From the IMG/VR virus record IMGVR_UViG_3300010376_000005, positions 1,971 to 65,970 of that record: 64,000 nucleotides of DNA; one strand, 5' to 3'. Source of the DNA: a virus. Lineage: Duplodnaviria > Caudoviricetes. The notes beneath the pieces were generated by a model, which had not been told where the DNA came from, searched no databases, and saw only the letters and a program-made list of their open reading frames with translations. The position numbers and the translations under genes were made by a program. Below are positions 1 through 64,000 of this stretch, piece after piece; position 1 is the stretch's first letter, and every line of letters starts with the position of its first letter.

Positions 1-1325
1 CCATTCGCCGCTTCGGCTAGGCGTCTGGGGTTGTGCGGCTCGAAGGTGAAGTTGGGGTTGGTCGAGCCCTCGAAGCCGCCGTGGCCGTGCTTCAGGTTGC
101 CGGAGATCCCCGTGGCCTGCATCCAGCGCGGCAGGAACTCATCGACCATGCGCCTGGAGATGTTCGCCTTGGCGTGTCGATCCAGCGCCTCCCACTGCTC
201 CTGTTGCCCCTCATCCCAGGTGCGGCCCGGCGCGATCTCGAAGTGGGTCTTGCCGCCGGCCGCGCGCAGCGCCGCACGGATAGCGCCGCCACGGGCGAAG
301 TTCTCAGGGTTTGCGGGCTGGCGCGCCTGACGGATGTCGGACTCGATCTTCTCGGGATCCTCGCTCGCAGGCCACTTGCCGATCCGCGTGAGGAGACTGG
401 GATCGTGTACGGCCATCTCGATCTTTTGCGGTCCGCTGCCGCCTTCGTTTGGCCAATTGGGGAGCGCCTCGGCCTCCCAGGCGCGGTTCTTCCGCCAGCC
501 CGATGCGGGCATTTCAGGACCGCCCCCGGTCCGCGCGTTCCACTCCCCGACGCCGTGTCCCATCATCGCCAGCTTGTGCGCGTCAGGCGCATCGGCGTGG
601 AAGGCGTGCACCGCCGCGTTCTTGCCGCCGTACCGCTGGCCATAGTGCCGGGCCAAGTCGATCGCCTGCTTCAGCTCCTCGGGGTTGCGCGCCAGTGCGC
701 CGTAGAAGCCCCGGCCGAGCGGCCGGATGTCGCCGGGCTCGCCGCTCCCCAGGTGCTTGAAGTCGATCGCGTCGAAGTCCCGGCCGCCGTGCACGAACAC
801 CGGCTTGAACGGCTTCGGCCGCCCCTTGGCCTGGGTGACGGTGGGGCCGCCATCCTGGCGTGCGGCTCGCATTGCCGCCGCCACTGCGCCGCCGGCCGCG
901 TTGCCCCACCGCAGCACCGGCACCTGGGGGATACCGAGTTCGCGAGCGGCGTGGGCCCGGTGGCGGCCGTCCTCCTTGCCGGTCGCCGAGATCTGCAGGG
1001 GATCGAGCGTGCGGCCAGCGCGGATGTGATCCTTGAGGTCGTCGATATTCTCGCGCGAGGTCTCATCGATCTTCAGGGGCCGGACCTTCGAGAGGAAGGC
1101 GTCCGGCGACATGTGCTCCATGCGCCCGCCGGTCTGCTTGTAATTGGCGTCGCCCCACCAGTTTGAGCGCGGAGCCAGGGGGTAGGCTGGACCGCCCTCC
1201 GCTCGACCCTCCCGCGCCGTCCGCAGCGCCGCCGCCACCGCCTGATCCTGCGGATGACCGGCGTGGACCATCTCGGAGATGTTCTGGCTCACCGTCGCCT
1301 GCGAGGATCCACGAGCGAGCGGCAT
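1..1325 (-). CDS. 5' part of a large modular virion-associated (polyvalent) protein: ParB-like plus ADP-ribosyltransferase-like domains; runs off the left edge
   Basis: Missing from the ORF track because it has no stop in the window. ATG at 1325 overlaps the upstream TGA. Manual translation: MPLARGSSQATVSQNISEMVHAGHPQDQAVAAAL..LDPLQISATGKEDGRHRAHAARELG..VFVHGGRDFDAIDF..GSGEPG..GRGFYG..EMAVHDP; G/C-ending codons throughout. Confidence 0.85.
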   Translation of the reverse strand, partial: MPLARGSSQATVSQNISEMVHAGHPQDQAVAAALRTAREGRAEGGPAYPLAPRSNWWGDANYKQTGGRMEHMSPDAFLSKVRPLKIDETSRENIDDLKDHIRAGRTLDPLQISATGKEDGRHRAHAARELGIPQVPVLRWGNAAGGAVAAAMRAARQDGGPTVTQAKGRPKPFKPVFVHGGRDFDAIDFKHLGSGEPGDIRPLGRGFYGALARNPEELKQAIDLARHYGQRYGGKNAAVHAFHADAPDAHKLAMMGHGVGEWNARTGGGPEMPASGWRKNRAWEAEALPNWPNEGGSGPQKIEMAVHDPSLLTRIGKWPASEDPEKIESDIRQARQPANPENFARGGAIRAALRAAGGKTHFEIAPGRTWDEGQQEQWEALDRHAKANISRRMVDEFLPRWMQATGISGNLKHGHGGFEGSTNPNFTFEPHNPRRLAEAAN

Positions 1326-10199: not shown

Positions 10200-10451
10200 T
10201 CAGTCTTCTTCGCTCATGAAGTGCCGGCCAGCCGGCTTCTCACCCGCCTTCGCCGAGCTGAACGGCCGCTCGTTGGCGCCAACGCCTCCGCCGCCCTTGC
10301 GCGGAGCCCGGCCGCCGGTCGCCCTGGCGTGCTCGCCGCGGATTTCGCCGACGTGCTTGCGCTCGTCCTTCCGCTCCTCCTCGCGGCCTTCAGCCCGCTC
10401 TTCCTTGTCTTTGCTGGTCTCGCCGCCGCGGCGGCGCATCTTCGTCTTCAT
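10200..10451 (-). CDS. small highly charged protein
   Basis: 83 aa, K/R/E-rich, carries RRGG and RATGG motifs. Confidence 0.65.
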   Translation of the reverse strand: MKTKMRRRGGETSKDKEERAEGREEERKDERKHVGEIRGEHARATGGRAPRKGGGGVGANERPFSSAKAGEKPAGRHFMSEED

Positions 10452-23469: not shown

Positions 23470-23481
23470 GAGACCTTACCG

Positions 23482-35245: not shown

Positions 35246-37641
35246 TGGCCGGGTTCAGCCGCGCCAACCTGCGTCTGGTCCCCCCGCCTGGGGGGCCCGC
35301 CATCGCCAACGACGACATCACCATCGACGTCGCCGAAGAGCCCGACGACCTGCAGGCCAACGACGAGGGCCAGATCCTCCGCATCGAGCACGGCGACGGC
35401 TCGGTCACCATCAGCATGAACGACCGCCCGCTGATCCCCAGCGGCGACGCCCCCAACAGCGGCGACTGGTTCCGCAACCTCGCCGAGGAGCTGAGCGAGG
35501 ACACCCTGGGCACGGTGGCCGAGGATCTGCTGCGCGGCGTCAGCGATGACGAGACCTCGCGCAAGGAGTGGATCGACTCGGTGGCGACCTTCGTGCGCCT
35601 GCTCGGCGTCACCCCCGAGGTGCCCAACGTCAGCGCCGGATCGACCGACGGCGCCCCGGTCGAGGGGATGAGCAAGGTCCGCCACCCGCTGCTGCTGGAG
35701 GCGGTGCTGCGCTTTCAGGCCAACGCCAGGGGCGAATTCTTACCCGCCGACGGGCCGATGAAGATCCGCGACGACTCCATCTCGGCCGGCGTCGAAATGG
35801 AGCTGCTCGCCGACGCGCTCGAAAAAGACATGAACCACTACCTGACGGCGCACGCGACCGAGTACTACCCCGACACCGATCGCATGTGGTTCCGCCTCGG
35901 GCTCGAAGGCACGGCGTTCAAGAAGGTCTACAGGTGTCCCCTGCGGATGCGGCCGGTCAGCGAGACGGTGACGGCCGAGAACCTGATCGTCTCCAACGAC
36001 GCCACCGACCTCGCCAACGCCCGCCGCGTCACCCACCGGCTGATGATGAGCCGCACCACCATCCGGCGGATGCAGATCATCGGCGCCTATCGCGACATCG
36101 ACCTGGGGACGCCGGTCGAGCCGACCCTCGACGAGGCGCAGCGCGAGATGCGCCGCCAGCAGGGGATCACCGACACCACCCTCAACCCCGACGATCGCGA
36201 TCGGCAGCTCTACGAGATCTACTGCGACCTCGACCTCGTCGGCTACGAGCACATGTGGAAGGGCAAGCCGTCCGGCCTGGAGATCCCCTATCGGGTGACC
36301 ATCGACGTCACCAGCCGGCAGGTGCTCAGCCTTGTGCGCGACTACGTCGAGGACGAGGCCTCTGAGCTGCCCAAGCGGCGCGAGACGTTCGTCCAGTATT
36401 GCTATGTGCCTGGTTTTGGTTTTTATGCGCTTGGGCTAGGTCATATCCTCGGCAATACAGATAACGCGCTCACTGCTGCTTGGCGTGAGATGCTAGATAA
36501 TGGCATGTTCGCAAACTTCCCGGGATTTTTAGTGGCAAAAGGAGCCACTAGACAGCAAACATCTATTCTACGCGTGCCGCCCGGCGGTGGAGCGCCGATC
36601 GATACTTTGGGCAAGCCGATTTCGCAGGCGGTGATGCCGCTGCCCTACCAGACCACCCAGATGCCGCCGCTGATGGCGCTGATCGACTCGATGGCGACGA
36701 CCGGCGCGCGGATCGGCGGGACCGCCGAGATCCAGGTCGGCGAGGGCAAGCAGGACGCGCCCGTGGGCACGACGCTGGCGCTGATCGATCAGGCGACCAA
36801 GGTGGAGAACAGCGTCCACAAGCGCATCCACACCGCCCAGGGGCAAGAGTTCAAGCTGATCGTGGCGCTGTTCCGCGAGCATCCGGAAGACTTCCTGCGC
36901 ACAGAGAAGAAGGACTCCAACTTCGCCTGGGACGCGCAGACCTTCCTGCAGGCGCTCGACACCTGCGAACTGGTGCCGCAGGCCGATCCGAACACCTCCA
37001 GCCAATTGCAACGCCTGATGAAGGCGATGGGGATCAAGCAACTGCAGGCGCAGAGTCAGAGCCTGTACGACCCGATCGCCGTCGACACCTACGCGCTCAA
37101 GACGATGGGCGTGAACAACCCGCAGCAATTTTTCGTCCCGCCACAGTCGATGGCGCAGCCGCCGCCGGAGCTGCAGCAGATGCAGGCCGAGATGCAGTCG
37201 AAGCTGCAGCAGGCCAACGCGAAGACCATGGACGCCAACTCCAAGGCCGCCATGGCCAAGGCCAAACTGGCCGAGACCCAGGCCAAGATCGCCCAGGGCG
37301 GCTTCGCCAAGGCCGGCGGCGCCGCCGCCCCGCCCAGCCCGCTCGATGCGATCAACGCCCGCGCCAAAATGATGGACGCCGAGACCCGCCGCTTCGACGC
37401 CCACGCCAAGATCCAGGAGACGGACCAGCAGTCGGCCGACCGCGCTGCCGATCGGCAGGCGGAGCAGCACTCCGATCAGGTGGATCTGGTCAAGGCGCTG
37501 CTCGCCCACCACGCCGACATCGGGGAATCAATGTTCGCGCACGCGCACGAGGCGCGCGAGGGCGCGCTCGATCGCGAAGCGGATCTCAAGCAGGCGAAGA
37601 TCGCCGCCAAAGCCAAACCAAAGGGAAAGACCAATGGATGA
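35245..37641 (+). CDS. portal protein
   Basis: 798 aa after terL; SRKEW..HPLLLEAVLRFQA..PVGTTLALI.Q..KV.NSVHKRIH. Confidence 0.9.
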   Translation: MAGFSRANLRLVPPPGGPAIANDDITIDVAEEPDDLQANDEGQILRIEHGDGSVTISMNDRPLIPSGDAPNSGDWFRNLAEELSEDTLGTVAEDLLRGVSDDETSRKEWIDSVATFVRLLGVTPEVPNVSAGSTDGAPVEGMSKVRHPLLLEAVLRFQANARGEFLPADGPMKIRDDSISAGVEMELLADALEKDMNHYLTAHATEYYPDTDRMWFRLGLEGTAFKKVYRCPLRMRPVSETVTAENLIVSNDATDLANARRVTHRLMMSRTTIRRMQIIGAYRDIDLGTPVEPTLDEAQREMRRQQGITDTTLNPDDRDRQLYEIYCDLDLVGYEHMWKGKPSGLEIPYRVTIDVTSRQVLSLVRDYVEDEASELPKRRETFVQYCYVPGFGFYALGLGHILGNTDNALTAAWREMLDNGMFANFPGFLVAKGATRQQTSILRVPPGGGAPIDTLGKPISQAVMPLPYQTTQMPPLMALIDSMATTGARIGGTAEIQVGEGKQDAPVGTTLALIDQATKVENSVHKRIHTAQGQEFKLIVALFREHPEDFLRTEKKDSNFAWDAQTFLQALDTCELVPQADPNTSSQLQRLMKAMGIKQLQAQSQSLYDPIAVDTYALKTMGVNNPQQFFVPPQSMAQPPPELQQMQAEMQSKLQQANAKTMDANSKAAMAKAKLAETQAKIAQGGFAKAGGAAAPPSPLDAINARAKMMDAETRRFDAHAKIQETDQQSADRAADRQAEQHSDQVDLVKALLAHHADIGESMFAHAHEAREGALDREADLKQAKIAAKAKPKGKTNG

Positions 37642-37855
37642 CGGATCCCTACAGGGTCTGAAGGATCACCTGACGAAGGCGCAGGAACTGCTGTTCCACG
37701 ATGACCGGCTGGCCTCGCTCGCCGACCTCGACCACGCCAAGCAGCATCTGCAGGCCGCCGTCGAGACGCTGGAAGAGTGGCTGTCGCCGCCCAACCCCTA
37801 CGTGTCCACCACCCTGAGGCCGGGCCTTCAACGGATCGGAGACAACGATGGCTGA
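37634..37855 (+). CDS. hypothetical protein
   Basis: 73 aa, overlapping start/stop. Confidence 0.5.
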   Translation: MDDGSLQGLKDHLTKAQELLFHDDRLASLADLDHAKQHLQAAVETLEEWLSPPNPYVSTTLRPGLQRIGDNDG

Positions 37856-39455
37856 TGTCGGCGCGAACGCGGCGCAACACTACCGCGAGGAGATGCGCTC
37901 CAAGGCGGCCAAGATCGCGGGCGACCGCGACGCCGTGAACGTCGACGGCTCCGAATTCACCCCGGCCGAGAAGCTGTACGCTGGGGTCAAGACCGGCATG
38001 CGGCCGATCAGCCGGCAAGCCCGTAGGGCCGGAGGAGCGGTGCGGCCCGAGCTTGAGCCGCAAGGCGAGCACGCGCCCCATCGCCCCGATCGCCCGGCCA
38101 GGGCCAGGGGCGGCGGCTTTGGCGAGGCCTTCGTCAACCGCGACCAGAAGGCCGCCAACGCCGAGCGCGAGGGCGAGTACCCCAACGGCGGGATGAGGGC
38201 CGGCGGCCGCACCGGGCGCGCCGAGGGCGGCTATCTGCCCCGCGAGGGCGGACCCTCCGAGACGCGCGCGCTGCGCAAGAAGACCGCCTCCAGCGAGGTC
38301 GAGACCGATCCTCAGCCGGCGGCGGAAGACGGTCGCCGCGCCCGGCAGATGGGCGGACCCCTGGCGGCGCCGCTGGCGGCCGGCATGGGCGGCCAGGGCC
38401 GCATGGCCTTCAACTTCGCGCCCGATCGCGCGCAGATGCTCGCCGACGGCGGCCGGGCCAAGGCGCACGAGCGCTACGGCCACGGGCCCGACTGTAGCTG
38501 TCCGTCCTGCCGCAAGGGCCGGGCGGACGGCGGCGGGGTGGAGGATGAGTTGCCTGCGAGCGCCGCACCGTCGCGCGCCGCAGCTCCACCCCGCTACAAC
38601 CGCGACGCCGTGCAGGCGGCGATCGATCAGTCCAACCGCCGCGGCCAGCGCATCGGCGGCAGGGAGGCGGCGATGATTCACGCCGTCCTCAAGGGTCACC
38701 AGCGCGAGGACAAGGCCAAGGGCGGCGGTTTCCGCACCGCCTCGGGCGCCGTCTCGACCGAGGGTCGCGAGAAGGCCGAGAAGAAGGGCCAGACGATGCC
38801 CGGCGGCGGGTTCCCGATCAGGAATGATGAGGATCTGAAGAACGCCAAGCACAGCGTCGGGCGCGCCAAAAACCCGGAAAAGGCGCGCGCCTGGATCAAC
38901 AAGCGGGCCAAGGAACTCGGCAAGCCGCCGATCGGCAAGGCTAAGGGCGGTTCAGCCCAGCCCGATCCCGACGAATTGGGACGGTTCGTTCGCCGGATGT
39001 CGCATCACCCGGCGCCGGACATCCAGGAGATGGTTCGGCAGCGGTTCGGAGGCTACCGGATCGGCTCTGACGAGCTGCAGGGTCATCTCGCCCCAGATGA
39101 TGAGGCTCAGCCCCGCGCTCGTGGCGGCAGATCGGGCAAGGGCAAGACCAACATCAACATCGTCATCGCGACGCCGGGTGGCCAGAGCCAGCAGGGCGCT
39201 GCGCCGCCTCCTGGCGGTCCGCCAGTAGGACCGCCGATGCGGCCGCCCGGCATGCCCGTGCCGATGATGCCGCCAGGGGCCATGCCCCCGCCTGGAGCAC
39301 CTGCGCCGATGGCGGCGCCGATGATGCCCCCTGGCGGCATGCCGCCCCCTGGGTTGCCGCCGCGGGCCAAGGGCGGCCGCGCGCCGCGGGCCGGATCGGG
39401 CTCGGGCCTGGGGCGGCTGGAGAAGGCTGAGCGCCAGGAGCGCAAGGAGGACTGA
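37848..39455 (+). CDS. low-complexity head-associated protein with about 11 xAxGG motifs
   Basis: RAGG, RARGG, RAEGG, LADGG, RADGG, KAKGG etc.; one module reads FPIRNDEDLKNAKHSVGRAKNPEKARAWINKRAKELG. Confidence 0.8.
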   Translation: MADVGANAAQHYREEMRSKAAKIAGDRDAVNVDGSEFTPAEKLYAGVKTGMRPISRQARRAGGAVRPELEPQGEHAPHRPDRPARARGGGFGEAFVNRDQKAANAEREGEYPNGGMRAGGRTGRAEGGYLPREGGPSETRALRKKTASSEVETDPQPAAEDGRRARQMGGPLAAPLAAGMGGQGRMAFNFAPDRAQMLADGGRAKAHERYGHGPDCSCPSCRKGRADGGGVEDELPASAAPSRAAAPPRYNRDAVQAAIDQSNRRGQRIGGREAAMIHAVLKGHQREDKAKGGGFRTASGAVSTEGREKAEKKGQTMPGGGFPIRNDEDLKNAKHSVGRAKNPEKARAWINKRAKELGKPPIGKAKGGSAQPDPDELGRFVRRMSHHPAPDIQEMVRQRFGGYRIGSDELQGHLAPDDEAQPRARGGRSGKGKTNINIVIATPGGQSQQGAAPPPGGPPVGPPMRPPGMPVPMMPPGAMPPPGAPAPMAAPMMPPGGMPPPGLPPRAKGGRAPRAGSGSGLGRLEKAERQERKED

Positions 39456-40045: not shown

Positions 40046-40063
40046 GCGCCAGGGAGCGAAAGC

Positions 40064-53835: not shown

Positions 53836-54725
53836 CAGGCGAATCCCGTCAGCAGAGCGGCGAGCCAGACGCCGTTGATGAAGGTGGCGACCAGCATGTC
53901 GATCGCCCCCGGCGCGGTCGATAGCACCCCTGGCGTGCCGTTGACCCATCGAAAGCTTGAGGGCCACAGCGCCGTGCGGTTGCCGGTGCTGTCCTGCTGC
54001 ATCTGGATGTTGACCGTCTGACCGTCGACCATGTTCGAGAACACGGGCGGGCTGCTCATGTTCGTCGTGAGGGTGACGCGGAACACATTCGACTTGCTGC
54101 AGTCGATCGGCATCGCCGCGGTTTGGAAGGCGAGCGCCTGGGTGAGGGTGGCGGCGCTGGCCTGCACGTCGAGCGGCTCTGTGACGGTCCAGAGGCCGAC
54201 ATTGCCGCCGACGGTGAGCGGGCCGCTGATGCTCAGGCCGCTGGTCGACGGGGCGTAGACGAGGCCTGTGGCGCCGGCCAGGGCCCCGCCAGCGTTGACC
54301 TGGACTTGGTTGGCAGATCCGCCCGCGCCCGTGTTGGCCGTGTCGCCGAACCGGGCGCCGTTGATCGGGTCGATGACGACGGTCGCGGCGACGCCTGACT
54401 GCACCTCGATCGTGGTGCCGCCATTGGCCGAGGCGAACCAGATCGAGTTGTCGCTGGTGAGGTTCCACACGAACAAGAACCGCGCCACGCCCGCGGGCAA
54501 TTGGAAGGTGATCGAGGCGGTCGGGGATCCGGTGACCACCAAGCTGGCGCAGCCGTACTGGGCCAAGGTCAGCGTCTGCACGCCGCTCAGGCCCGTCGCA
54601 TTGATCATGGCGACGGTCCCGAAGGCGGTGTCGATCGTCTGCGAGGTCGCGTTGACCACGCTATCCCACGTCCCGACGTCGGCCCCGTTCGCCGGCTGCT
54701 GGATGCTGAGGTTCGTCGTGACCAT
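53835..54725 (-). CDS. tail/fibre-associated structural protein
   Basis: GADVGTWDSVVN..ID; C-terminal QQDSTGNRT..WPSSFRW..LSTAPGAID. Confidence 0.7.
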   Translation of the reverse strand: MVTTNLSIQQPANGADVGTWDSVVNATSQTIDTAFGTVAMINATGLSGVQTLTLAQYGCASLVVTGSPTASITFQLPAGVARFLFVWNLTSDNSIWFASANGGTTIEVQSGVAATVVIDPINGARFGDTANTGAGGSANQVQVNAGGALAGATGLVYAPSTSGLSISGPLTVGGNVGLWTVTEPLDVQASAATLTQALAFQTAAMPIDCSKSNVFRVTLTTNMSSPPVFSNMVDGQTVNIQMQQDSTGNRTALWPSSFRWVNGTPGVLSTAPGAIDMLVATFINGVWLAALLTGFA

Positions 54726-57337
54726 TAGAAGCCTCGCTGAGCCACCTGCAGCGCGCGCGCTACCGTGTCATCGGAAAGTCCGAGGAGGGGCTTGGTGGCC
54801 GCCTGGGAGGCCCTCTGCGCCCGTTCTGCGCGCTGCATCAGCTTTTCGGTCATGTCGCCGACCTCGCCGCCGACGGCGAAGCCGATCCGGCCGCCCGCGG
54901 CCTGCGGCGTTGCGTCGATCAGCTTATCCCAGTCGTCGTGGTCGTGGGCTGCGGTCGCGTCTTTAGGCGGCTCGACCGGCTCGGCGTCTGGCGTCGCGGA
55001 GTTGTCGACCACGGGTGCTGCTGACGTTGGCGCTGGCGCTGGCGTTAGCGCCTGCAGCCCAACAGCGTGCGCCCTCGACAGCGCGGGCGCGGCCGTACCG
55101 GCGGCCTCGACGCCAGCGGCGACCGGATTGATGAGACCGCCAGCCGTGGGCGCGCCAGCCCTGGCGGCCCCACGGGCGAAGTGTCCTGTAAGCGCCTCGC
55201 CAGCAGCCTCGGCGCCGACTCCAGCCGCTCCAAGGACTGGCTCCCTGACGATCCACGGAACCGCGTGGAGGGCGGGGATCAGCGGCGCCATGGCCGCGCT
55301 GAATAGTCCGGCGCCGGTTGCGCGCGCCACCGGGCCCAGACCTGGGGAGCCACCTGCCATCGGGTTGTCCAGCGCATCGGTGGCGCTGGCGGCCAGCCGC
55401 AGGTCTGAAGCCTCGGTCGGCGAGAACACCTGCTGACCAAGTGGGGTGTCGAGGAAAGCGCGGACAGCGCTTGGCTTGGCGACCATGGCGCCCGTCTGCG
55501 GATCGGTTGCGAGCGCGGTCTGGCGGATGTGGTCGTCCAGCGCCTGCTTAGAGGCAGGATCGGCAAAGGGGCCGTTGGCGAGGTCTTCGTAGAGTTTCGA
55601 CGCCGTGGCTGGCGTCTTTAGCGTTCCGGGTTTCACCAAGTCCTTGGCAAGTTCAGCGTGCGCCGTTTCAGCACTGCCGCCAAGATCTACATCGCCAGGA
55701 GCGCTATCCACTGCCTGGATACCGCTCTTTTTGACGGCCCTACGTACAGTTGGATTGGCGTCGTTGCCGAAATTATTATGGTAACTTTGATTTGCTTTGT
55801 TGGCGTTGCGATAGTTGATGAACGAGTCAGGGGTCGTGTCAGGCGATACCGCCGCGCCGGCTGGTTGGGCTTTATCACCGAGCCCCCACCTCTCGGCCCA
55901 AGCATTCAGGTCAGGATCAATGTCGCTGAGCGACACTCCTGAGGCTGGCGTCACGGGCGTCGCGCCGGCCATGTCCGTCACGGATTTATCGAAGGCGCCC
56001 TTCAGGACGCCTGTCTCATGCGGCGTGAGGCTGGTGTCCAGATTGCCGATGCCTCTGCGAAGGTCATTGAGGTTGGGGAAGGTGAGCTTCCCCGCATCGC
56101 CGAAGACCTTGGTCGCGTCCGTCAGTCGGGTGATCGCGTTCGCCAGACCTGGGCGCGCAGCCTCCAGCAGCTTCGGATTGGACTCGATCTGGTTCTTAGG
56201 GTCCTCCAGCGCCGCCTTGATGTTCTGGCCAAGCGTGCTCTGGAACGTCGCCGGATCGACCGTACCGGGGCTGGAGGTGCGCGCCGTCTTGTAGGCGTTA
56301 TCGACAGCCGTCTTCGCCTGCGTGTGGGCCTCGTTCAGCGTGTCGCCGAGCACGGTGTCGCTGACCGGCGGCCCGGCCATCGCTTGCAGTTTCTGGCCGA
56401 TCGCCGCTTTGCCGTTGGCGATCATCTTGTCCGTCACCGCCTGCGCCGACCTTGGAGGCGCGGCGCCCGTCACTGGACCTCGCGGCGCTGGGACGCCGTG
56501 ATAGGTGATCAGGCCCTCCCGCACGGCGGCCGGGTTGACGCCCTTGTTCTGCATCGCTGACGCCACAGCGGTCCTGACCCCAGGGCGCGCCAGATCTGCG
56601 TCCGTGAGGCCGGGCGCGGCCTGCGAAATCATCGCGCGGGCTTTAGGCGTGAACGCGCCGTTCTGGTCGAGGACTGCGCCCCCGCGGACCGCCGTGCGAG
56701 CCGCTCGCGCGCCCCTGGCCGCGAGTGAGCCGGACAGTTGGAGTGGATCGACATACTTGGCTGCACCCAGCGCGCGCCCGATCGCGGACTCGCCCGTCAA
56801 GGCCTCGCCGCCGGCCGCGATCGTGCCGAGATCCATCGCCGTGCCGCCAGGATCCTGGACCGCTGTGCTGACGACGTTCTGGGGGTTGCCATAGGGGTGC
56901 CGCGGATCGATCCCGACGTATCTCTGGTTGAGGTTACGCACGATGTCGGCCCCGATGGACGGGGTGCCTGGAGCGGGTTTCCGCGGCGGCGTTATGTTGA
57001 GCGCGCGGAGCGCCGGATCGAGCGTGGATCCACCAAAGGCGTCGTAGAGGCCATAGGTGAGGCGCGGGTCTGGGTGGACGATGGCGCGTCCGACGTTTCG
57101 GATGTCCTCGGCGGCGGTAGGGAAGAAACGGTGCGCGACCGCGCTCGGCAGGTCCGCGAGCGTCTCCTGGCCTTTCGGCGGCGCGTTGTAGGTCGGCGAG
57201 AACGTACTCGCCAGCGACGTCCACGGATCTCTGGGAGCCGGCGGTGCGGCCCGTGGCGGCGGCCTGGGCGGCGCAGATCTCGGTGGCGTCGCGGCGGGAC
57301 GCCCGTCAATCAGATCATCCCATGGATCGCGGGCCAT
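54725..57337 (-). CDS. large internal virion (ejection) protein
   Basis: 870 aa, Ala-rich; AAGGRIGFAVGG then C-terminal LL..SDDTVARAL..A. Confidence 0.65.
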   Translation of the reverse strand: MARDPWDDLIDGRPAATPPRSAPPRPPPRAAPPAPRDPWTSLASTFSPTYNAPPKGQETLADLPSAVAHRFFPTAAEDIRNVGRAIVHPDPRLTYGLYDAFGGSTLDPALRALNITPPRKPAPGTPSIGADIVRNLNQRYVGIDPRHPYGNPQNVVSTAVQDPGGTAMDLGTIAAGGEALTGESAIGRALGAAKYVDPLQLSGSLAARGARAARTAVRGGAVLDQNGAFTPKARAMISQAAPGLTDADLARPGVRTAVASAMQNKGVNPAAVREGLITYHGVPAPRGPVTGAAPPRSAQAVTDKMIANGKAAIGQKLQAMAGPPVSDTVLGDTLNEAHTQAKTAVDNAYKTARTSSPGTVDPATFQSTLGQNIKAALEDPKNQIESNPKLLEAARPGLANAITRLTDATKVFGDAGKLTFPNLNDLRRGIGNLDTSLTPHETGVLKGAFDKSVTDMAGATPVTPASGVSLSDIDPDLNAWAERWGLGDKAQPAGAAVSPDTTPDSFINYRNANKANQSYHNNFGNDANPTVRRAVKKSGIQAVDSAPGDVDLGGSAETAHAELAKDLVKPGTLKTPATASKLYEDLANGPFADPASKQALDDHIRQTALATDPQTGAMVAKPSAVRAFLDTPLGQQVFSPTEASDLRLAASATDALDNPMAGGSPGLGPVARATGAGLFSAAMAPLIPALHAVPWIVREPVLGAAGVGAEAAGEALTGHFARGAARAGAPTAGGLINPVAAGVEAAGTAAPALSRAHAVGLQALTPAPAPTSAAPVVDNSATPDAEPVEPPKDATAAHDHDDWDKLIDATPQAAGGRIGFAVGGEVGDMTEKLMQRAERAQRASQAATKPLLGLSDDTVARALQVAQRGF

Positions 57338-57343
57338 CTTATC

Positions 57344-60300
57344 TCACTGGTTGGGGACCAAGCTGAAGCCGGTGGCGGAACGGGCGTCGGTGATCGCCAT
57401 GCGCCCCTTGTATCGGCCCGAAGGGATGATGAACGGCGTCCCATGATCCGGGTTCTGCGCCGTGGCCTTCGGCCAGTTCTGGACTTGGGCTGCCGAGGTC
57501 GGGTGGCGCGGATGCGCTTCCTTCTCCGCCAGGGACATACCTTGGAAATAAGGGATCTTGTCGGCGGCGCGCTGGTTGAAGCCGTCGATGGGGTGCTCCT
57601 TGGCCCAATCGGTGTCGTAGTCGCTGACGTTCGGGGCCGTGACGTGCTGTCGGTTGGCGCGCCAATCGGTCAGTTGCTGAGCCTTCTGATCAAGGGCGCC
57701 CTGTAGCTGGCTGATGATGCTGAAGCGCGTGGCGGGCCCCAGACTCGGGTCGGGGAGCGCCGCTTGCGAGCCCGACAGACCGGCGGCTGGAGCGCCGTGC
57801 AGGATCTCAGCCCCGAGCGCCCCGGCGGCGCCGGTAAACGCCAACCGCATCGTGTCCTTCTTGCCGGTCTGATAGGCTTCCTGGACGCGCTTGTCGGCGT
57901 TGGTGACGACGCTCTCGAACGGCGTGCCTCGCGCCTTGGCGACGATGTCCGCCCAAGCTGACTCCATGCCTTCCGGATCCGTAGTGCCGTAGAGGCGGGT
58001 CAGGTCGCCCACCAGCGTTTTGGTCGTCGAGTATTGGCCGTTGGGGTCGAAGAACTGTGAGGCTTCGGCGTTGCGGTGATCGATGACTGCTTGGCCAGTT
58101 TGCTGCTGGCTCATGTTGTTCGCCACAGCCTGAGCATTTTGCTGGTAACCCGTCTCGAACGTCCCGTCTTTGCGTCGCGGCAGCGTTCCGTGACCCCCGG
58201 TGACCTCATCGTACCGCTTCTGTGCGGCATCGGCGTCGCCGGGACGGCCTGCTGCGTTGTTCGCGATGACCGCAGCACGCAGCATGTCGGGGTTATCCAG
58301 GTCTTGCAGTTGCGACGTATCCACCTGCTGCAAGGGGACGCCTGACGTCGCGTAGTCGCCGTTGGCAAGCTTGGCCGTTACCGACGCGCCAGCGGCGAGT
58401 GGCGCGTGTGTGTGCGCAGTCGGCGCTACAGGAGATCCAACTTGATGAGCAGGAACACCGCCAGCGCCGCCAGCGCCGCCACCGCCAAACCCATCAGGCC
58501 CAGCCACCACACCAGGACCAATAGTGTGACCACCGGCACCCCCGGAATTCCCAAGGGAGACAGCACCCAGCGGAGCGGCGCGAGCAGGGAGCGAAGGTTG
58601 CGCCGGAGCGCCTGGAGATTGTCCTGAAGGAGGAGATCCATTCGAAGGTCCTATTGCCGCGGCGACTGGGTTCTGCCAACCGCCCGCCACGGCGCCATAA
58701 AGTTGATACGCTTGCTGTAGCAGCGCATTCCTGGCGTTTGTACCATCCTCCAGGCTGTATTGTTGACCCGTCATTGTGTCGCGATAGCCCGGCATCCCGT
58801 TCGCCAATTTGATAGGCGCGAAACGCGCGTCGATGATGTTGAGCGCGTGCTGGAAGGCAGGCCCGGCCACGTTCAGGCGCTGTGTCTGCGCCTCGTACGC
58901 TGTGATTGGGACGCCAGCGGCCTGCGCCTGGGTGCCGGTGCCGACCGTGGCCGTCTCCGCGGCTTGGCGCGCATTGGCCATGTCGTAGGCGCGTTGCTGC
59001 TGGTAGGCCGCGGCCCCTGAGGCGCCGCCGACCAACAGCGCCGTGAGCGGATGACTGGTCGGCGCAGACGCGGCTGCGCCCGCCGCCTCCGCGAGCGGGA
59101 TCCAATGTTCTGGCTGCGCAAGCCAGCCCAGGACGCCGGGCTTCTTCTGGTTTTGCGCCGCCACAAGCTGGTCGTACTTGTCCTGCTGAACCTCCTGACG
59201 CGCCCGCGCCACGTTCAAATAAGGGTCCATCCCGAGTGGAGGTTGAGGAGGCGCAGCAGCTCCGCCGAAGCCGGCCGTATCATCGGCCCTTGCCTTCCTC
59301 GGCGGCGGCGCAACCGACGTGTCGTCGGGGTGGATGCCCATGCTGGTGTCGACGCTGTCGTCCTGGACGACGCTGGGGTCGTCGGGGCCAACCACGCCTG
59401 CGCCCGCAAAGCCCCGGCGCACCGCGCCGCCCGTGGCGCGGATGCTGCGATCGGCCCATTGGACGAACTGACCGGCGGTCTTGCCGGCCATGATGTGGGG
59501 GTTCTCGCGGATCGCGATCGGCCGCACGAGGTTCTCCATCGGCGTCGACGGATCGGCCTGCAGCACGCGCGGACCCTCGTGGGGGCCCAGGATCCACATG
59601 ACGTGCTCGGTGGCCGGGTTCACCGGGATGTTCTGCGCCTGCAGCGTGGCGGCGTTGTCGGCGCGCAGATGCGGGACCATCTGGGCCTGCAGCGCATTGC
59701 CCTCGGGCGTGCCGTGCAGCGCCAGGATCTGCGCGTCGCTCATGCCGGCGGCGCGGTCGGGGAACACCTTCTTGAACTCGCCCAGGAACGTCCTGGGGAG
59801 GAACTGCCCAGGCCCGTTGGCGCCGGAGAGCGGGTTGAGGCCGGTCCCTTCAGACCTCAGCGTGCCAGCGAAGCCGGCGGGCGTTGGGGCGGCGCCAGGA
59901 GCCCCGCTGGGGCGGGCGGCGGCGGCGAGGCCAGGGGCTGGCGCGGCGGGACCGCCAGGGCCGTCTGCGGGGCTCTCCGGGGCCACAGCGTTGGCGAAGC
60001 CGGCTGGCCGGCGCCGCTGCGGCGCCGGGGTCGTCAGCGTCTGACGCAGGAGCGCGTCGAGGTCGGAATTCCTGTCGGCGGTCTCCAGGTCGCTGATCAG
60101 GTCGTTCGTCGGATCGCCGCCCGTCGCGAAGCCGATCCGGCCGCCACGGCGAGCGCCGCCCGCGAACTGCCCCGCGGTTTTCGCAATCTGTGCGGCATCG
60201 TCCATAAATTCCATGAAGCCGCTCTTCTGTGGCTTGGGCAGATCGGCCGGATGCAACTGGGCAGTCGACTGCGTATCGGGAATGTCGAGGCCAGCCCCTT

Positions 60301-62203
60301 GCGGGTGGTAGGGGTCCGTGCCCTGCGGCGGGGCGGTGGGATCAGAGCTGCCGCTGTCAGGCGTGTCGTCAAAGCCGCCATCCGCCCGGCCACGACGACG
60401 ACGTGCGCCGATGAAGCCGCCGGCCGCGGAGCCGATGTCGAACAGAGAACTGGCGTCAGCCGTGGCGTCCTGGGCAGCGCTGGCGGTGTCCTGGGCGGCG
60501 CTGCTGACGTCGGCAGCGGCGTCCTTGGCGGCGGACTCGGCGGACTCGGCGGCCTGGGCTGAGCCGTACGACGTGGGGAGGTCGTGCCACGCGGCCTGCG
60601 TGGCGGGAGAGGACGCGGCGCGGGCGGCGGCGGCGTCGGCATGGGCGGCCAGCATCTTTTGGCCGCCTTGCACGAGGCTCTTGCCTTGGTTCCAGAAGCT
60701 CCTGGCGTCGCCAGCGTCCTGCGCCGCCTGATGGATCGGATCGTAGTTCTCCCGCGGCTTCGGCAGCTCGGCGGGCGCGAGGTGCGCGATCGGCACGTTG
60801 GCCTGCGGCACGTAGCTCGATCCGCCGTGCGGCGCGCCGCTCGCCGAACCGCCGTAGAGGCCGCTCCCCGCGAATGGCCCGAAACTCCCCTCCTGCGCCT
60901 GTAGCATCTGGCCGATGTCCATCGGCACCACGCCAGCGGGATAGGCGACGCCGCCGAAGCCCTGGTAGCCGCCGGCCTGACGCGCGCGGCGCGGCTCCGC
61001 GTCCCAACCGGCGTTGTCGTTGGCCGCATTGGCGAAGCCGCCGCGCTCCGCCGCCTCCTGGGTGGCGCGGCCGTACTCGACCGCCTTGAAGCCGGACGGG
61101 GTCTCGGCGACCGCCTCGGGGTGACGCCGCTCGGTCTCCTGGGCGGAGAGGCCCATGCGCCACGTCGGATCGCCCTTGTAGCGGAACCTGTAGATGTTGG
61201 CGCCGTCGAAGCCTTTGCCGACCGGCTGCATGTCTTCCTTGACCCGCTCGTCGGACATGAACAGACCACCGGGCTGTGTGCCGGTAGTCGTCGAGCCAGA
61301 CAACGCGCCCGTTCCTTCGGCTATGTTGGCTAAGAATTGTGCAGTCTGGAACGGATATGACTGTTGTTGCAAGAATTGATTGTATAGAGCAGTAAGACCA
61401 GCCTGTTGTGTCTGTTGTTCTACTTGCCCAGCGCCGAGTTCTGCTTGCCCTTGCTGCAGCTCGGCCCCCTGCAGGCCCTGCCCCAGGCTGGCCAGAAGCT
61501 GCGCGTTGCTCTGTCCCATGCCGAAGCCTTGCTGCGCCAAGGCGGCCATGCTCTGGCCGGTCTGCTGCAGGGCCGCCCGGTTGGCCTGGGCGGCGGCGAG
61601 GTTGACGCCCTGCTGCTGCTGCGCCGTCGACAGCGCCTGATTGTAGGCGTCGCTGAGGATCCCCGAGTAGGTCTGCCCCGCAGCGAGCTGCTGCTGGCCC
61701 GCCAGCACGGCCGCGGCGATGCCTGATCGGTCGCCGCCGAAGGCGCCTGAGGAGATGGCGTTGCCCATCTGCCCAGCCTGCTGTTGCTGGTTGGTCTGGT
61801 TGATTAGGGCCTCGGTCGAGCCGAGCACGGTCCCCAGGTAGGGGTTCATGTACTGGCCGATCGTGGAGGCGTCGATCTGCGAGGGATCCACCGCCTGCCC
61901 GCCGGCCAGGGCGAAGCCGGTCGCCGAGTTCATGTACGGCTGCGCGCCTGCATAGGCGCCCTGCGCCGCGCTGGTGGCGGCCCCGTAGTACGACGGCGCG
62001 ACAGCGCCCGCATTGTTGATGGTGCCGATCCCCGCCTGCTGCTGGGCGTTTACGGGGGCGACGAAGGCGCTGGGATCGGTCGAATAGACCTGGAACGGCG
62101 CAGCCGCGGCTTGCTGGGCCTGCGCGTTGACTGAATTGTATCGCGCCAAGACCTGCGGAGGTATTGAAACTTGTGAGGAAGAGGTAGAGGTCTTACCGCC
62201 CAC
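57344..62203 (-). CDS. large ejection protein with internal S74-like chaperone domain and lytic-transglycosylase-like domain
   Basis: 1619 aa; SDERVKED..IYRFRYKG..MGLSAQE; SEG..NPLSGANGPGQF..TF. Confidence 0.8.
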   Translation of the reverse strand: MGGKTSTSSSQVSIPPQVLARYNSVNAQAQQAAAAPFQVYSTDPSAFVAPVNAQQQAGIGTINNAGAVAPSYYGAATSAAQGAYAGAQPYMNSATGFALAGGQAVDPSQIDASTIGQYMNPYLGTVLGSTEALINQTNQQQQAGQMGNAISSGAFGGDRSGIAAAVLAGQQQLAAGQTYSGILSDAYNQALSTAQQQQGVNLAAAQANRAALQQTGQSMAALAQQGFGMGQSNAQLLASLGQGLQGAELQQGQAELGAGQVEQQTQQAGLTALYNQFLQQQSYPFQTAQFLANIAEGTGALSGSTTTGTQPGGLFMSDERVKEDMQPVGKGFDGANIYRFRYKGDPTWRMGLSAQETERRHPEAVAETPSGFKAVEYGRATQEAAERGGFANAANDNAGWDAEPRRARQAGGYQGFGGVAYPAGVVPMDIGQMLQAQEGSFGPFAGSGLYGGSASGAPHGGSSYVPQANVPIAHLAPAELPKPRENYDPIHQAAQDAGDARSFWNQGKSLVQGGQKMLAAHADAAAARAASSPATQAAWHDLPTSYGSAQAAESAESAAKDAAADVSSAAQDTASAAQDATADASSLFDIGSAAGGFIGARRRRGRADGGFDDTPDSGSSDPTAPPQGTDPYHPQGAGLDIPDTQSTAQLHPADLPKPQKSGFMEFMDDAAQIAKTAGQFAGGARRGGRIGFATGGDPTNDLISDLETADRNSDLDALLRQTLTTPAPQRRRPAGFANAVAPESPADGPGGPAAPAPGLAAAARPSGAPGAAPTPAGFAGTLRSEGTGLNPLSGANGPGQFLPRTFLGEFKKVFPDRAAGMSDAQILALHGTPEGNALQAQMVPHLRADNAATLQAQNIPVNPATEHVMWILGPHEGPRVLQADPSTPMENLVRPIAIRENPHIMAGKTAGQFVQWADRSIRATGGAVRRGFAGAGVVGPDDPSVVQDDSVDTSMGIHPDDTSVAPPPRKARADDTAGFGGAAAPPQPPLGMDPYLNVARARQEVQQDKYDQLVAAQNQKKPGVLGWLAQPEHWIPLAEAAGAAASAPTSHPLTALLVGGASGAAAYQQQRAYDMANARQAAETATVGTGTQAQAAGVPITAYEAQTQRLNVAGPAFQHALNIIDARFAPIKLANGMPGYRDTMTGQQYSLEDGTNARNALLQQAYQLYGAVAGGWQNPVAAAIGPSNGSPPSGQSPGAPAQPSLPARAAPLGAVSLGNSGGAGGHTIGPGVVAGPDGFGGGGAGGAGGVPAHQVGSPVAPTAHTHAPLAAGASVTAKLANGDYATSGVPLQQVDTSQLQDLDNPDMLRAAVIANNAAGRPGDADAAQKRYDEVTGGHGTLPRRKDGTFETGYQQNAQAVANNMSQQQTGQAVIDHRNAEASQFFDPNGQYSTTKTLVGDLTRLYGTTDPEGMESAWADIVAKARGTPFESVVTNADKRVQEAYQTGKKDTMRLAFTGAAGALGAEILHGAPAAGLSGSQAALPDPSLGPATRFSIISQLQGALDQKAQQLTDWRANRQHVTAPNVSDYDTDWAKEHPIDGFNQRAADKIPYFQGMSLAEKEAHPRHPTSAAQVQNWPKATAQNPDHGTPFIIPSGRYKGRMAITDARSATGFSLVPNQ

Positions 62204-62747: not shown

Positions 62748-64000
62748 TCAGTCCTTTGCCGGGCCGGGCAGGCCCTTGAGGGTTTTGATGTGCTTGGCGC
62801 GGCTGCGCTTGACGAACTCATCGAGCACGCGGCAGCCCAGGTCGGCGTCGCCGCCGCCGGCCGCCCGCACCTGCTCGGGCGAGAGGACGTACTCGCCGCC
62901 GGCCGCGACGATCGGCACGCCCCTGTCGCCATTGGCGGCGCGACCGCCTCGGGAATCGCCGCCCGTGGCGCGGCCAGGGCGCTCGAAGTCGGGGTCGTAC
63001 TGCTGGCTAACGCGCTCGTAGCTGCCGTCATCGAGCATCGCCTGCAGGCGGCTGAGGTGGGCGGTGGCTGTCGGCAGGTCCCGCTGGCCCATCGCCACGG
63101 CCGCCTCGCGGGCGGCGTGCTGGGCGTCGTTGTACACCGGCAGCTTGCGGTGCTCGGCGCTGTAGGCGTCGAGTTGGGGCAGCTGCGGGATCCGCGCGAT
63201 GCGCTCGCCGTCCACCCGGTTGGTGGTCAGCCCGAGCATGCGGCTGACCTTGGGCGCGACGAACTCGCGGCCAAAGCGCCCGCCATGCTCGGCCATGCGG
63301 TGGGTGAGGTCGCCGACGTGCTCCAGGCCCCAGCCAAGCGCGTTGGCCGAGGGATAGTCGGTCTTGGCGAGAGCCCACTGAGCCTTGAGCATGGCCCGCT
63401 CAGGCTTGTCCCGCTGGGCGTCGGCCAGGGCGTTGAACGCCGCCGTCTTGGCGTCGGTGGCGACCTGGCCCCCGTCGGCCCTGGCGATCCCGCCGCGCGA
63501 GTTCTGCAGCGGCTCGCCGTAGGGGCCTGAGCCCTGGCCATAGGGGCCGCCGGTCTGGCCGTACGGCGTGCCGCCGAACAGCCTTCGCATCGTCTTGAAG
63601 CCGGCGGTGGTGTTACCCTCGCCGAAGCTGCTGACCACGTCGGCGGGCAGCACGTACGACCCCGACGGCACATGCATCGGCAGGTGGTCGGTGCGGCCGG
63701 CGACGTGCGAGTGGATCGGGCCGACGTGCAGGTGGGGAACGTGGGGGCGGTGGGCGCCGTGCAGGTTGGAGTGGAAGAGCAGCGGGCCGCCCTCGGCGAA
63801 ACCGCCGTGAGCGAAACCTCCTAACGCTGGTGCTGCTTGCGCCGCCTCATCCACTCGGCCGCCCGCGAGGCCGCCGCCTTGGATTGCGCCGGGGTCATGA
63901 TCGGTTGCGGCGGGTCCGGGTGATCCGAGAGCATTTCGTGGATGGTCGGGTTGCGCTTGGGGTGACGGGGCGACTTCGTCGGCGTCGAGTGGGCGCCCGA
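62748..64000 (-). CDS. 3' part of a modular virion-associated protein; open to the right edge
   Basis: The frame of the 62748..63854 ORF stays open to 64000; HVGPIHS..AGRTDHLPMHVPSGSYVLPADVVS and VPIVAAGGEYVL. Confidence 0.8.
   Translation of the reverse strand, partial: GRPLDADEVAPSPQAQPDHPRNALGSPGPAATDHDPGAIQGGGLAGGRVDEAAQAAPALGGFAHGGFAEGGPLLFHSNLHGAHRPHVPHLHVGPIHSHVAGRTDHLPMHVPSGSYVLPADVVSSFGEGNTTAGFKTMRRLFGGTPYGQTGGPYGQGSGPYGEPLQNSRGGIARADGGQVATDAKTAAFNALADAQRDKPERAMLKAQWALAKTDYPSANALGWGLEHVGDLTHRMAEHGGRFGREFVAPKVSRMLGLTTNRVDGERIARIPQLPQLDAYSAEHRKLPVYNDAQHAAREAAVAMGQRDLPTATAHLSRLQAMLDDGSYERVSQQYDPDFERPGRATGGDSRGGRAANGDRGVPIVAAGGEYVLSPEQVRAAGGGDADLGCRVLDEFVKRSRAKHIKTLKGLPGPAKD

What the first reader, a model, noticed from the sequence alone, without database searches (positions are those of the whole stretch)
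37848..39455. Recurring xAxGG motif punctuates at least six virion-associated proteins: candidate polyprotein processing or module-swapping system
Seen: about 11 copies here (RAGG, RARGG, RAEGG, RQMGG, LADGG, RADGG, KAKGG x2, RARGG, RAKGG); also in 1..1325 (RAEGG, RQDGG, FARGG, RAAGG), 10200..10451, 54725..57337 (AAGG, FAVGG), 57344..62203 (RQAGG, RADGG, FATGG, RATGG) and 62748..64000 (FAHGG, FAEGG, RADGG, RATGG). The motifs bound recognisable domains and are not evident in replication or early proteins. No HK97-type head protease was recognised. Knowledge: GG-directed cleavage is used by adenovirus and ASFV maturation proteases and by C39 peptidases, and FATGG/YATGG occurs in the processed C-terminus of the lambda tape measure protein. 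Inference: GG sites mark cleavage or targeting points that release separate cargo effectors.
Basis: partly seen in the sequence, partly recalled or inferred. Interest (0 to 1): 0.8.

Follow-up and report, generated by a model that had tools for sequence, protein, structure and literature searches.

The report
Gly-Gly joint peptide in phage cargo
A five-residue peptide (Arg/Lys/Phe, Ala, any, Gly, Gly) joins the swappable modules of the proteins this phage probably packs into its head and ejects into the host. It matches the one mapped site where phage T5 cuts its tail ruler protein, so it is probably a cutting site, but no cut has been shown here.

Summary
[RKFLYMH][AQ]xGG occurs 9 times in the 535-aa protein at 37848-39455 (0.6 expected) and 12 times in a 1474-aa protein (1.2 expected). 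All other genes sit at chance.

The motif is the joint between modules:
- 52% of homology breakpoints in the giant protein lie within 10 aa of a copy (15% expected).
- All 34 relatives with a domain inserted into the conserved C-terminal carrier have a joint, or a close variant, at both ends of the insert.
- Joints fall in low-confidence (disordered) stretches of the structure models.
- The motif persists in relatives of 35-65% GC.

Cleavage is plausible but unproven. T5 tape measure pb2 is cut after R1127, the first residue of an RAEGG that is invariant across T5-like phages. That predicts a cut before the Ala, not after GG.

I recognised no dedicated maturation protease. The C39-like candidate does not co-occur with the motif.

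Earlier reports of this scan found the same joint in giant tape measure and crAss-like cargo proteins of other phages. I found no published description.

The parts
37848..39455 (+). P0001: a 535-aa basic, Gly/Pro-rich, disordered protein encoded just after the portal gene. It has 9 strict joints, at aa 85, 124, 166, 198, 225, 289, 364, 423 and 506 (nt 38100-38114, 38217-38231, 38343-38357, 38439-38453, 38520-38534, 38712-38726, 38937-38951, 39114-39128, 39363-39377).
   Evidence: Translation and coordinates. Enrichment. The Atlas model has pLDDT 0.49. In the family alignment A1 all GG pairs are invariant, and an insertion of about 86 columns is bounded by joint copies on both sides.
1..1325 (-). 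N-terminal 441 aa of the 1474-aa polyvalent cargo protein. The gene continues leftwards out of the window, through the contig ends, to 62748. Joints: RAEGG aa 41, KQTGG 63, RQDGG 156, FARGG 343, RAAGG 354.
   Evidence: HMMER domain edges fall at 39-150 and at 354/359-601.
1206..1325 (-). N-terminal 40-aa helical hairpin domain of the giant protein (phrog_2423), followed directly by RAEGG.
   Evidence: PHROG E=2.9e-11. The AF2 model shows a helical hairpin with pLDDT 75-87. The same domain heads the 'head maturation protease' of Acinetobacter phage AP22 and Burkholderia phage BcepB1A.
62748..64000 (-). C-terminal 416 aa of the same giant protein. Joints: FAHGG, FAEGG, RADGG, RATGG, RAAGG (nt 63801-63815, 63786-63800, 63468-63482, 62958-62972, 62853-62867).
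   Evidence: More than 1132 database relatives share this end.
63507..63731 (-). Carrier module, Part A (LHVGPIHS...GRTDHLP...SGSYVLPADVV...PYGE).
   Evidence: Invariant columns in alignments A2 and A4. AF2 gives a beta-hairpin plus two helices, with pLDDT up to 93.
62973..63467 (-). Helical cassette of about 165 aa, inserted between Part A and Part B and fenced by RADGG and RATGG.
   Evidence: Short relatives join Part A and Part B with a single joint. All 34 insert-bearing relatives have a joint or a close variant at both ends. No Pfam match.
62748..62918 (-). Carrier module, Part B (VPIVAAGGEYVLSPEQV...LDEFVKR...LPGPAKD) and the stop codon.
   Evidence: The alignment to lambda gpH 751-773 is weak (hhalign E=0.078).
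57344..62203 (-). P0002: a 1619-aa internal virion / ejection protein. Joints: RQAGG aa 408, RADGG 606, FATGG 692, RATGG 922.
   Evidence: PHROG 'DNA ejection protein' and 'virion structural protein'. In 80 related loci the homologous gene carries 3-8 joints against about 1 expected.
61109..61255 (-). Peptidase_S74 self-cleaving intramolecular chaperone domain inside P0002 (aa 317-365). The Ser317/Lys322 dyad is present in SDERVK.
   Evidence: Pfam E=3.5e-5, 24.5 bits against a cut-off of 22. Sequence.
54725..57337 (-). P0003: an 870-aa internal protein with one extended joint, GGRIGFAVGG (FAVGG at 54866-54880).
   Evidence: P0002 has the same 10-mer form (GGRIGFATGG), and so does the relative MW202675.1 (GGRVGFAQGG). 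One copy is not significant alone.
10200..10451 (-). P0010: an 83-aa basic protein in the head gene block, with RATGGRAPRKGG (10311-10325). It resembles the P0001 C-terminal RAKGGRAPR.

Best explanation
Shown: [R/K/F/Y]-[A/Q]-x-G-G (often followed by x-V) is a conserved joint peptide. It sits in disordered linkers between independently folding modules of proteins that this temperate podophage, which has an SU10-type portal, probably packages and ejects.

Shown: the 1474-aa protein is a small carrier into which at least five unrelated cassettes have been placed. The carrier has an N-terminal helical hairpin and a split Part A / Part B module. Each cassette is fenced by a joint. Relatives gain, lose and move cassettes exactly at joints.

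Inferred: the joint is a recognition site for endoproteolytic processing that frees the cassettes from the carrier and chops the disordered P0001. This would happen during virion assembly or after ejection. By analogy with T5 pb2 (R1127|AEGG), the cut is predicted between the first motif residue and the Ala. The protease would be a host enzyme or an unrecognised virion activity, because the phage encodes no recognisable maturation protease.
For: - Enrichment is strong: 9 against 0.6 and 12 against 1.2, with the reversed motif and local shuffles as controls.
- In 80 related viral loci of 39-65% GC, carrier genes hold 176 copies against 11.8 expected. The large downstream internal protein holds 3-8 against about 1. 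The other 771 genes hold 120 against 90.
- The motif is kept in the 35%-GC Pelagibacter phage HTVC027P.
- A logo anchored only on GG gives R/K at -3 (0.49) and Ala at -2 (0.44).
- 52% of homology breakpoints lie within 10 aa of a joint, against 15% expected and a maximum of 19.7% in 2000 randomisations.
- Inserts are fenced at both ends in 34 of 34 cases.
- The ParB-like cassette at the giant's N-terminus sits between Part A and Part B in P0229, again fenced.
- Joints fall in stretches with pLDDT below 50.
- T5 pb2 is cut 'after R1127' (PMC10038345). R1127 opens RAEGG, and R-A-x-G-G is invariant in T5-like tape measures down to 37% identity.
- Lambda gpH has FATGG at 733. A cut there gives 79.5 + 12.8 kDa, close to the reported loss of about 14 kDa. 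The real site and protease are unknown.
- Host proteases do process ejection proteins: the P22 record says OpdA removes 20 residues from gp7.
Against: - No cleavage product has been observed for any member of this family.
- The precedent is a single mapped site in a different kind of protein, a siphophage tape measure.
- The carrier module matches no protease fold or sequence.
- No dedicated maturation protease was recognised among about 55 ORFs scanned.
- Accepting both basic and aromatic residues at the position before the cut would be unusual for one protease.
- Part A and Part B seem to form one unit, which cuts flanking an insert would split into two chains.
- No relative encodes a cassette as a separate gene ending at a joint.
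- A conserved joint could serve translocation or recombination without ever being cut.
Confidence: 0.5

Rival explanations
1. The joint is never cut. It is a conserved flexible hinge that lets a chain of modules unfold, thread through the portal and tail channel, and refold one module at a time. Because every cassette carries the same joint, recombination between joints reshuffles cassettes.
For: - Joints are disordered and rich in Gly.
- Insertions carry one extra joint copy, like a repeat left by joint-to-joint recombination.
- No dedicated protease was recognised in the genome.
- Phage N4 virion RNA polymerase is packaged unprocessed (PMC5512222).
Against: - Plain linkers rarely keep a specific Arg/Lys-Ala-x-Gly-Gly sequence across 35-67% GC and more than a thousand proteins.
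- The same pentapeptide is the mapped T5 cut site and is invariant there.
- Polyvalent proteins of other lineages share the same domains but lack the motif at their junctions. So the motif is not needed simply to link domains.
Confidence: 0.3
2. The joint is a short binding motif. Repeated copies would dock the cargo to the capsid interior, the portal or the packaged DNA, acting as a packaging or targeting signal rather than a cleavage site.
For: - The motif is restricted to probable internal proteins.
- It is flanked by basic residues, and the extended form GG-R-I-G-F-A-x-GG could make a short strand.
- P0001 is basic and disordered with 9 copies.
Against: - The position of the motif tracks module boundaries precisely, which a docking signal has no need to do.
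- A separate, better candidate for targeting exists: the N-terminal hairpin shared with head proteases of other phages.
- No partner is known.
Confidence: 0.12
3. The phage's own C39-like cysteine peptidase (21010-21735) cuts after the Gly-Gly, as bacteriocin leader peptidases do.
For: - The sequence has a Cys motif (YCGPSAIS) and a later His (GHHWQLV).
- The Atlas model aligns to Peptidase_C39 clusters at TM 0.43-0.52.
Against: - No Pfam or PHROG match.
- No homologue was found in the held parts of the motif-bearing relatives MW202675.1 (50 of 61 kb) and HTVC027P (47.6 of 57.6 kb).
- Its homologues lie in phage records, three of the five at least 95% complete, that lack the carrier. The one record where genes could be called well shows no motif enrichment.
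- It lies in the early region.
- The T5 cut is before the Ala, not after GG.
Confidence: 0.05
4. The motif is a by-product of Gly-, Ala- and Arg-rich composition in a 67%-GC genome.
For: These proteins are rich in G, A and R.
Against: - Local and global shuffles and the reversed motif all give about 1 copy or fewer where 9-12 are seen.
- The motif is kept at 35-52% GC.
- GG pairs are invariant in alignments.
Confidence: 0.02

Closest known systems
Phage T5 tape measure protein pb2 and its maturation into pb2* and pb2C (Linares et al. 2023, PMC10038345)
   Same: - The same pentapeptide, RAEGG, lies exactly at the mapped cut (after R1127).
- It is invariant in T5-like phages down to 37% identity.
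- It separates a C-terminal module from the rest of a protein that is ejected ahead of the DNA.
   Different: - T5 has one functional copy in a siphophage tail ruler.
- Here 27 copies fence many cassettes in head-packaged proteins of a short-tailed phage that has no tape measure.
- The T5 protease is also unknown.
Polyvalent proteins of phages and conjugative elements (Iyer, Burroughs, Anand, de Souza, Aravind 2017, PMC5512222)
   Same: - Long phage proteins that string unrelated effector domains.
- Relatives of this carrier hold NUDIX, ART-PolyVal and InPase domains.
- They are presumed to enter the host with the DNA.
   Different: - That paper proposes processing by zincin-like metallopeptidase domains.
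- A text search of it finds no glycine or linker motif.
- No such peptidase domain is found here.
- Polyvalent proteins of other lineages that share these domains lack the joint.
Lambda gpH to gpH* plus gpHC
   Same: - FATGG and YATGG lie in the Gly-rich region from which about 14 kDa is removed.
- They are followed by GEFVFT, which resembles Part B (GGEYVLSP).
   Different: - The cleavage site and protease are unknown.
- The sequence similarity to Part B is not significant (hhalign E=0.078).
T4 internal proteins with capsid targeting sequence, cut by prohead protease gp21 (and phiKZ/SPN3US head protease sites)
   Same: Cargo is loaded into the head and trimmed at a short consensus site. Here the N-terminal hairpin followed by a joint would play the part of the targeting sequence.
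   Different: - Those phages encode the protease, and its site also occurs in the scaffold and capsid proteins.
- No prohead protease was recognised here, and the capsid protein lacks the motif.

Membership tests
Polyvalent proteins (Iyer et al. 2017) | Several unrelated domains in one phage-encoded polypeptide | tested here: met
   HMMER finds separate homology blocks at aa 39-150, 354-601 and about 605-1095, plus the carrier. Each block occurs in different contexts in other proteins.
Polyvalent proteins (Iyer et al. 2017) | Domains typical of the class (ParB/DdrB-like, ART-PolyVal, InPase, NUDIX and others) | tested here: inconclusive
   Relatives of the carrier hold PF00293, PF18760 and PF18823. 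In this protein there is only a weak PHROG ParB-like hit (E=4.8e-4), and no Pfam hit on any single cassette.
Polyvalent proteins (Iyer et al. 2017) | Embedded zincin-like metallopeptidase proposed to process the chain | tested here: inconclusive
   No peptidase family matched in Pfam or PHROGs. The unassigned cassettes were not folded.
T5 pb2-type maturation site | R-A-x-G-G pentapeptide at a module boundary of an ejected protein | tested here: met
T5 pb2-type maturation site | Peptide bond after the first residue is cut in the virion | not testable with these tools
   Needs mass spectrometry of particles. No cultured relative with a proteome was found.
T5 pb2-type maturation site | The host protein is a tape measure protein | tested here: not met
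   This phage has SU10-type portal, adaptor and nozzle genes and no tape measure.
C39 double-glycine leader processing | C39 peptidase domain | tested here: inconclusive
   P0005 has no Pfam match. The Atlas structure comparison gives TM 0.43-0.52 to C39 clusters.
C39 double-glycine leader processing | An N-terminal leader of 15-30 residues ending in GG, and a peptidase that occurs together with its substrates | tested here: not met
   The motifs are internal and repeated. The peptidase candidate and the motif do not occur together.
Prohead-protease processing (T4 gp21, HK97, phiKZ types) | A prohead protease gene in the head module | tested here: not met
   About 55 ORFs were scanned with Pfam, and the roughly 36 structural and neighbouring ones also with PHROGs. 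None matched a protease family. A separate scaffold-like protein (40064-41038) is present.
Peptidase_S74 intramolecular chaperone (in P0002) | Domain match above the Pfam cut-off, with the Ser-Lys dyad | tested here: met
   24.5 bits against a cut-off of 22. S317 and K322 lie in SDERVK. Self-cleavage itself is not testable here.

The most novel reading that the evidence does not exclude
The R/K/F/Y-A-x-G-G joint is a common release code of tailed phages. One conserved protease, a host enzyme or an unrecognised virion activity, would cut it in ejected proteins of both long-tailed phages (T5 pb2, lambda gpH, giant cassette-bearing tape measures) and short-tailed phages (this carrier family and the internal virion proteins). 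Phages could then add or exchange ready-made effector enzymes simply by inserting joint-fenced cassettes.
Probability: 0.3. Interest if true: 0.85.

Novelty: new variant of a known kind. Interest (0 to 1): 0.62.

Why it matters
If the joint is a cleavage site, it would give a simple rule for reading hundreds to thousands of uncharacterised phage proteins. Each stretch between two joints would be one deliverable module.

It would link two long-standing puzzles to a defined pentapeptide that can be mutated in model phages: where and how lambda gpH is cut, and what cuts T5 pb2.

It would also show that short-tailed phages use the same device in their head-packaged proteins that long-tailed phages use in their tail rulers.

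The carrier family (N-terminal hairpin, Part A, Part B) is large: more than 1132 proteins and at least 594 viral contigs. It matches no known fold or Pfam family.

Tried and rejected
- **Composition artefact:** rejected by global and local shuffles, the reversed motif and low-GC relatives.
- **C39-like peptidase P0005 as the processing enzyme:**
  - It has no family match.
  - It was not found in the held parts of motif-bearing relatives.
  - Its homologues lie in phages without the carrier.
  - Gene calling was poor in two of the three low-GC records, so that check is weak.
- **Carrier module as a protease:**
  - Two AF2 models were made. The better one has pLDDT 77 and pTM 0.71.
  - Foldseek against the PDB gave no match at E<=0.001.
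  - VIA-align wide gave a best Z of 3.9-6.0, on helices only.
  - A profile search of PDB sequences found nothing.
  - This leaves the fold unassigned. It does not exclude any family.
- **Homology of Part B to the lambda gpH C-terminus:** hhalign gives the expected register but E=0.078, so I treat it as a resemblance only.
- **Split genes ending at a joint:** the six ORFs with a joint near the C-terminus all appear to be truncated at a locus end.
- **P0001 as the scaffold:** rejected. The acidic coiled-coil protein at 40064-41038 fits that role better. The major capsid protein is at 11039-11953.
- **Literature:** text searches for the motif strings returned only primer sequences. No paper describing the joint was found.
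- **Tools and papers not available:** Zivanovic et al. 2014 on T5 was not held.
Full report
**Context**

The window is bases 1971-65970 of a 65,970-bp viral contig. The last 123 bases of the contig repeat bases 24-146, so the contig is circular and 65,847 bp long. It is 67% GC.

Genes recognised:
- Integrase, primase-helicase and a RecE-like exonuclease.
- Large terminase at 33239-34969 and an SU10-type portal at 35245-37641.
- SU10-type adaptors, a nozzle-like protein and tail fibres.
- A major capsid protein at 11039-11953.
- A GroES-like gene, followed by an acidic coiled-coil protein at 40064-41038 that looks like the scaffold.

About 55 ORFs were scanned with Pfam, and the roughly 36 structural and neighbouring ones also with PHROGs. 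None matched a protease family.

Portal relatives include the uncultured phage MW202675.1 (58% identity), Pelagibacter phage HTVC027P, Roseobacter phages and Caulobacter phages.

Counts of [RKFLYMH][AQ]xGG:

| Protein | Observed | Expected |
|---|---|---|
| P0001 (37848-39455) | 9 | 0.61 (global shuffle), 0.65 (30-aa local shuffle) |
| 1474-aa giant protein | 12 | 1.05-1.23 |
| P0002 | 4 | 1.2-1.3 |
| P0003 | 1 | about 0.4 |
| 83-aa P0010 | 1 | 0.07 |

The reversed motif occurs only once in P0001 and 4 times in the giant protein. The remaining genes are at chance.

It starts at 1325 on the minus strand, runs through the contig ends and stops at 62748.

The extended form of the motif is basic-GG-basic-(I/V)-(G/A)-[FKR]-[AQ]-x-GG, often followed by x-V.

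**The motif is not a composition effect and is not private to this phage**

- MW202675.1 (59% GC) has the motif in the equivalent proteins.
- The 35%-GC pelagiphage has KADGGRIGY, MAVGGRVGY and YADGGRIGF.
- Across 80 viral loci that encode the carrier (39-65% GC):
  - carrier genes hold 176 copies against 11.8 expected;
  - the large gene just downstream, the P0002 equivalent, holds 3-8 against about 1;
  - the other 771 genes hold 120 against 90.
- A logo anchored only on GG dipeptides in the variable N-terminal parts of 119 relatives gives R/K at -3 (0.49) and Ala at -2 (0.44).

**The motif is the joint between modules**

*The carrier family.* The C-terminal 416 aa of the giant protein has more than 1132 relatives of 228-728 aa. 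They share three elements:
- Part A (LHVGPIHS-x-VAGRTDHLP ... SGSYVIPADI ... PYGE).
- Part B (VPIVAAGGEYVLSP ... LDEFVKR ... LPGPKKD).
- Usually a 40-aa N-terminal hairpin.

Everything else varies. Variable parts include NUDIX, ART-PolyVal, InPase, a methyltransferase and unknown domains.

*Inserts between Part A and Part B.* In 77 members the two parts are joined by one joint. In all 34 members with an insert there, a joint or a close variant stands at both ends.

*Moved cassettes.* The ParB-like block at the giant's aa 39-150 reappears between Part A and Part B in P0229, again fenced by joints.

*Homology edges.* An exhaustive HMMER search with aa 1-1098 places homology edges at 354/359-601 and at about 600-640. 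These lie next to RAAGG (354), FAYGG (600) and LARGG (608).

*Breakpoint statistics.* Over 737 homology breakpoints, 52% lie within 10 aa of a joint. The expectation is 15%, and the maximum in 2000 randomisations was 19.7%. These hits are not independent of one another.

*The P0001 family.* All GG pairs are invariant. An insertion of about 86 columns is flanked by GGRAHRQDGG and GGRAHRAEGG.

*Structure models.* AF2 models put the joints in stretches with pLDDT below 50, between confident elements. The Atlas model of P0001 is disordered.

*Other lineages.* Polyvalent proteins of other lineages share the large domains but lack the joint. The joint therefore belongs to particular phage lineages and is not a general feature of multi-domain proteins.

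**Is the joint cut?**

Nothing here measures cleavage. The closest experimental anchor is T5:
- The tape measure pb2 is cut after R1127 (PMC10038345).
- In the T5 sequence, R1127 is the first residue of RAEGG.
- R-A-x-G-G is invariant in Klebsiella, Providencia and Vibrio relatives down to 37% identity.

Lambda is consistent with this but not decisive:
- gpH has FATGG at 733 and YATGG at 778.
- gpH loses about 14 kDa from its Gly-rich C-terminal region, but the site and the protease are unknown (PMC12617516).
- A cut near 731 would give fragments of 79.5 and 12.8 kDa.
- Part B aligns to gpH 751-773 in the expected register, but without significance.

Host proteases can process ejection proteins. 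The P22 record states that OpdA removes 20 residues from gp7.

P0002 also carries a known self-cleaving element. A Peptidase_S74 domain with its Ser-Lys dyad lies at a module boundary. Processing of at least one of these chains is therefore expected on independent grounds.

**What argues for caution**

- No protease was recognised.
- The carrier matches no known fold.
- The C39-like protein at 21010-21735 has only weak structural support. It does not travel with the motif.
- No relative encodes a cassette as a separate gene ending at a joint.

An uncut hinge that aids threading and recombination remains a serious rival.

**Targeting**

The N-terminal hairpin (phrog_2423) also heads proteins annotated as head maturation proteases in Acinetobacter phage AP22 and Burkholderia phage BcepB1A. 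A mini-domain of P0001 (aa about 298-384) occurs in capsid maturation protease and portal genes of Microbacterium and Gordonia phages. Both facts fit loading of these proteins into the procapsid, but neither shows it.

**Relation to earlier work**

Earlier reports of this scan describe the same (Y/F)AxGG-x-V joint. They found it fencing cassettes in giant tape measure proteins and in crAss-like cargo proteins of other uncultured phages. Several of them also cite the T5 site. I had reached the T5 link independently before reading them.

This case extends the pattern to the head-packaged proteins of a short-tailed temperate phage and to a very large carrier family. I found no published description of the joint.

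**Verdict**

The module-junction reading is well supported. Cleavage is the best-supported mechanism, at about even odds. The cut is predicted before the Ala rather than after Gly-Gly.

Noticed in passing
window 1-1325 and 62748-64000; contig ends: The contig ends overlap by 123 bp. Naive circularisation therefore duplicates 41 aa inside the giant gene. The true product is 1474 aa, and the two ORFs at the window ends are one gene.
   Followed up: yes
61109-61255 (-): A Peptidase_S74 self-cleaving chaperone domain (SDERVK, Ser317/Lys322) lies inside the 1619-aa P0002, after an N-terminal part of 316 aa that resembles stand-alone ejection proteins of about 390 aa. P0002 looks like a fusion that may cut itself at 316|317.
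   Followed up: partly
1206-1325 (-): The 40-aa N-terminal hairpin (phrog_2423) is shared with the N-termini of 'head maturation protease' genes of Acinetobacter phage AP22 and Burkholderia phage BcepB1A. It is a candidate procapsid-targeting domain.
   Followed up: partly
38739-38999 (+), P0001 aa about 298-384: This mini-domain (FPIRNDEDLKNAKHSVGRAK...) matches parts of genes annotated as capsid maturation protease or portal in Microbacterium and Gordonia phages and a mangrove-soil virus. It also matches unannotated genes of Bacteroides phages.
   Followed up: no
relatives P0020 aa 46-88 (not in this window): A 40-aa mini-cassette (GLYANIHAKQERI...GAPT) fenced by joints is 55-75% identical to small ORFs or gene parts in many marine T7-like cyanophages, pelagiphages and roseophages.
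   Followed up: no
21010-21735 (+): An early-region protein with a Cys motif (YCGPSAIS) and a later His (GHHWQLV). It shows weak structural likeness to Peptidase_C39 (TM 0.43-0.52). It belongs to virus-only clusters and is not linked to the joint motif.
   Followed up: partly
39653-41038 (+): A GroES-like gene (Cpn10, E=2.8e-7) directly precedes an acidic coiled-coil, scaffold-like protein. The same pairing is found in HTVC027P, Caulobacter phage RW and MW202675.1. The scaffold-like protein begins MAKGG, which has the joint pattern at its very N-terminus.
   Followed up: no
23452-23907 (+): The C-terminal 43 aa match the ribosome modulation factor family (PF04957, E=1.6e-5, 25.3 bits, just under the 27.9 cut-off). 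This may be a phage-encoded RMF-like domain.
   Followed up: no
38484-38531 (+), P0001 aa 213-228: HGPDCSCPSCRKGRAD, preceded by HERYG, is conserved in four of five family members. It looks like a small Cys/His metal-binding knuckle lying between two joints.
   Followed up: no
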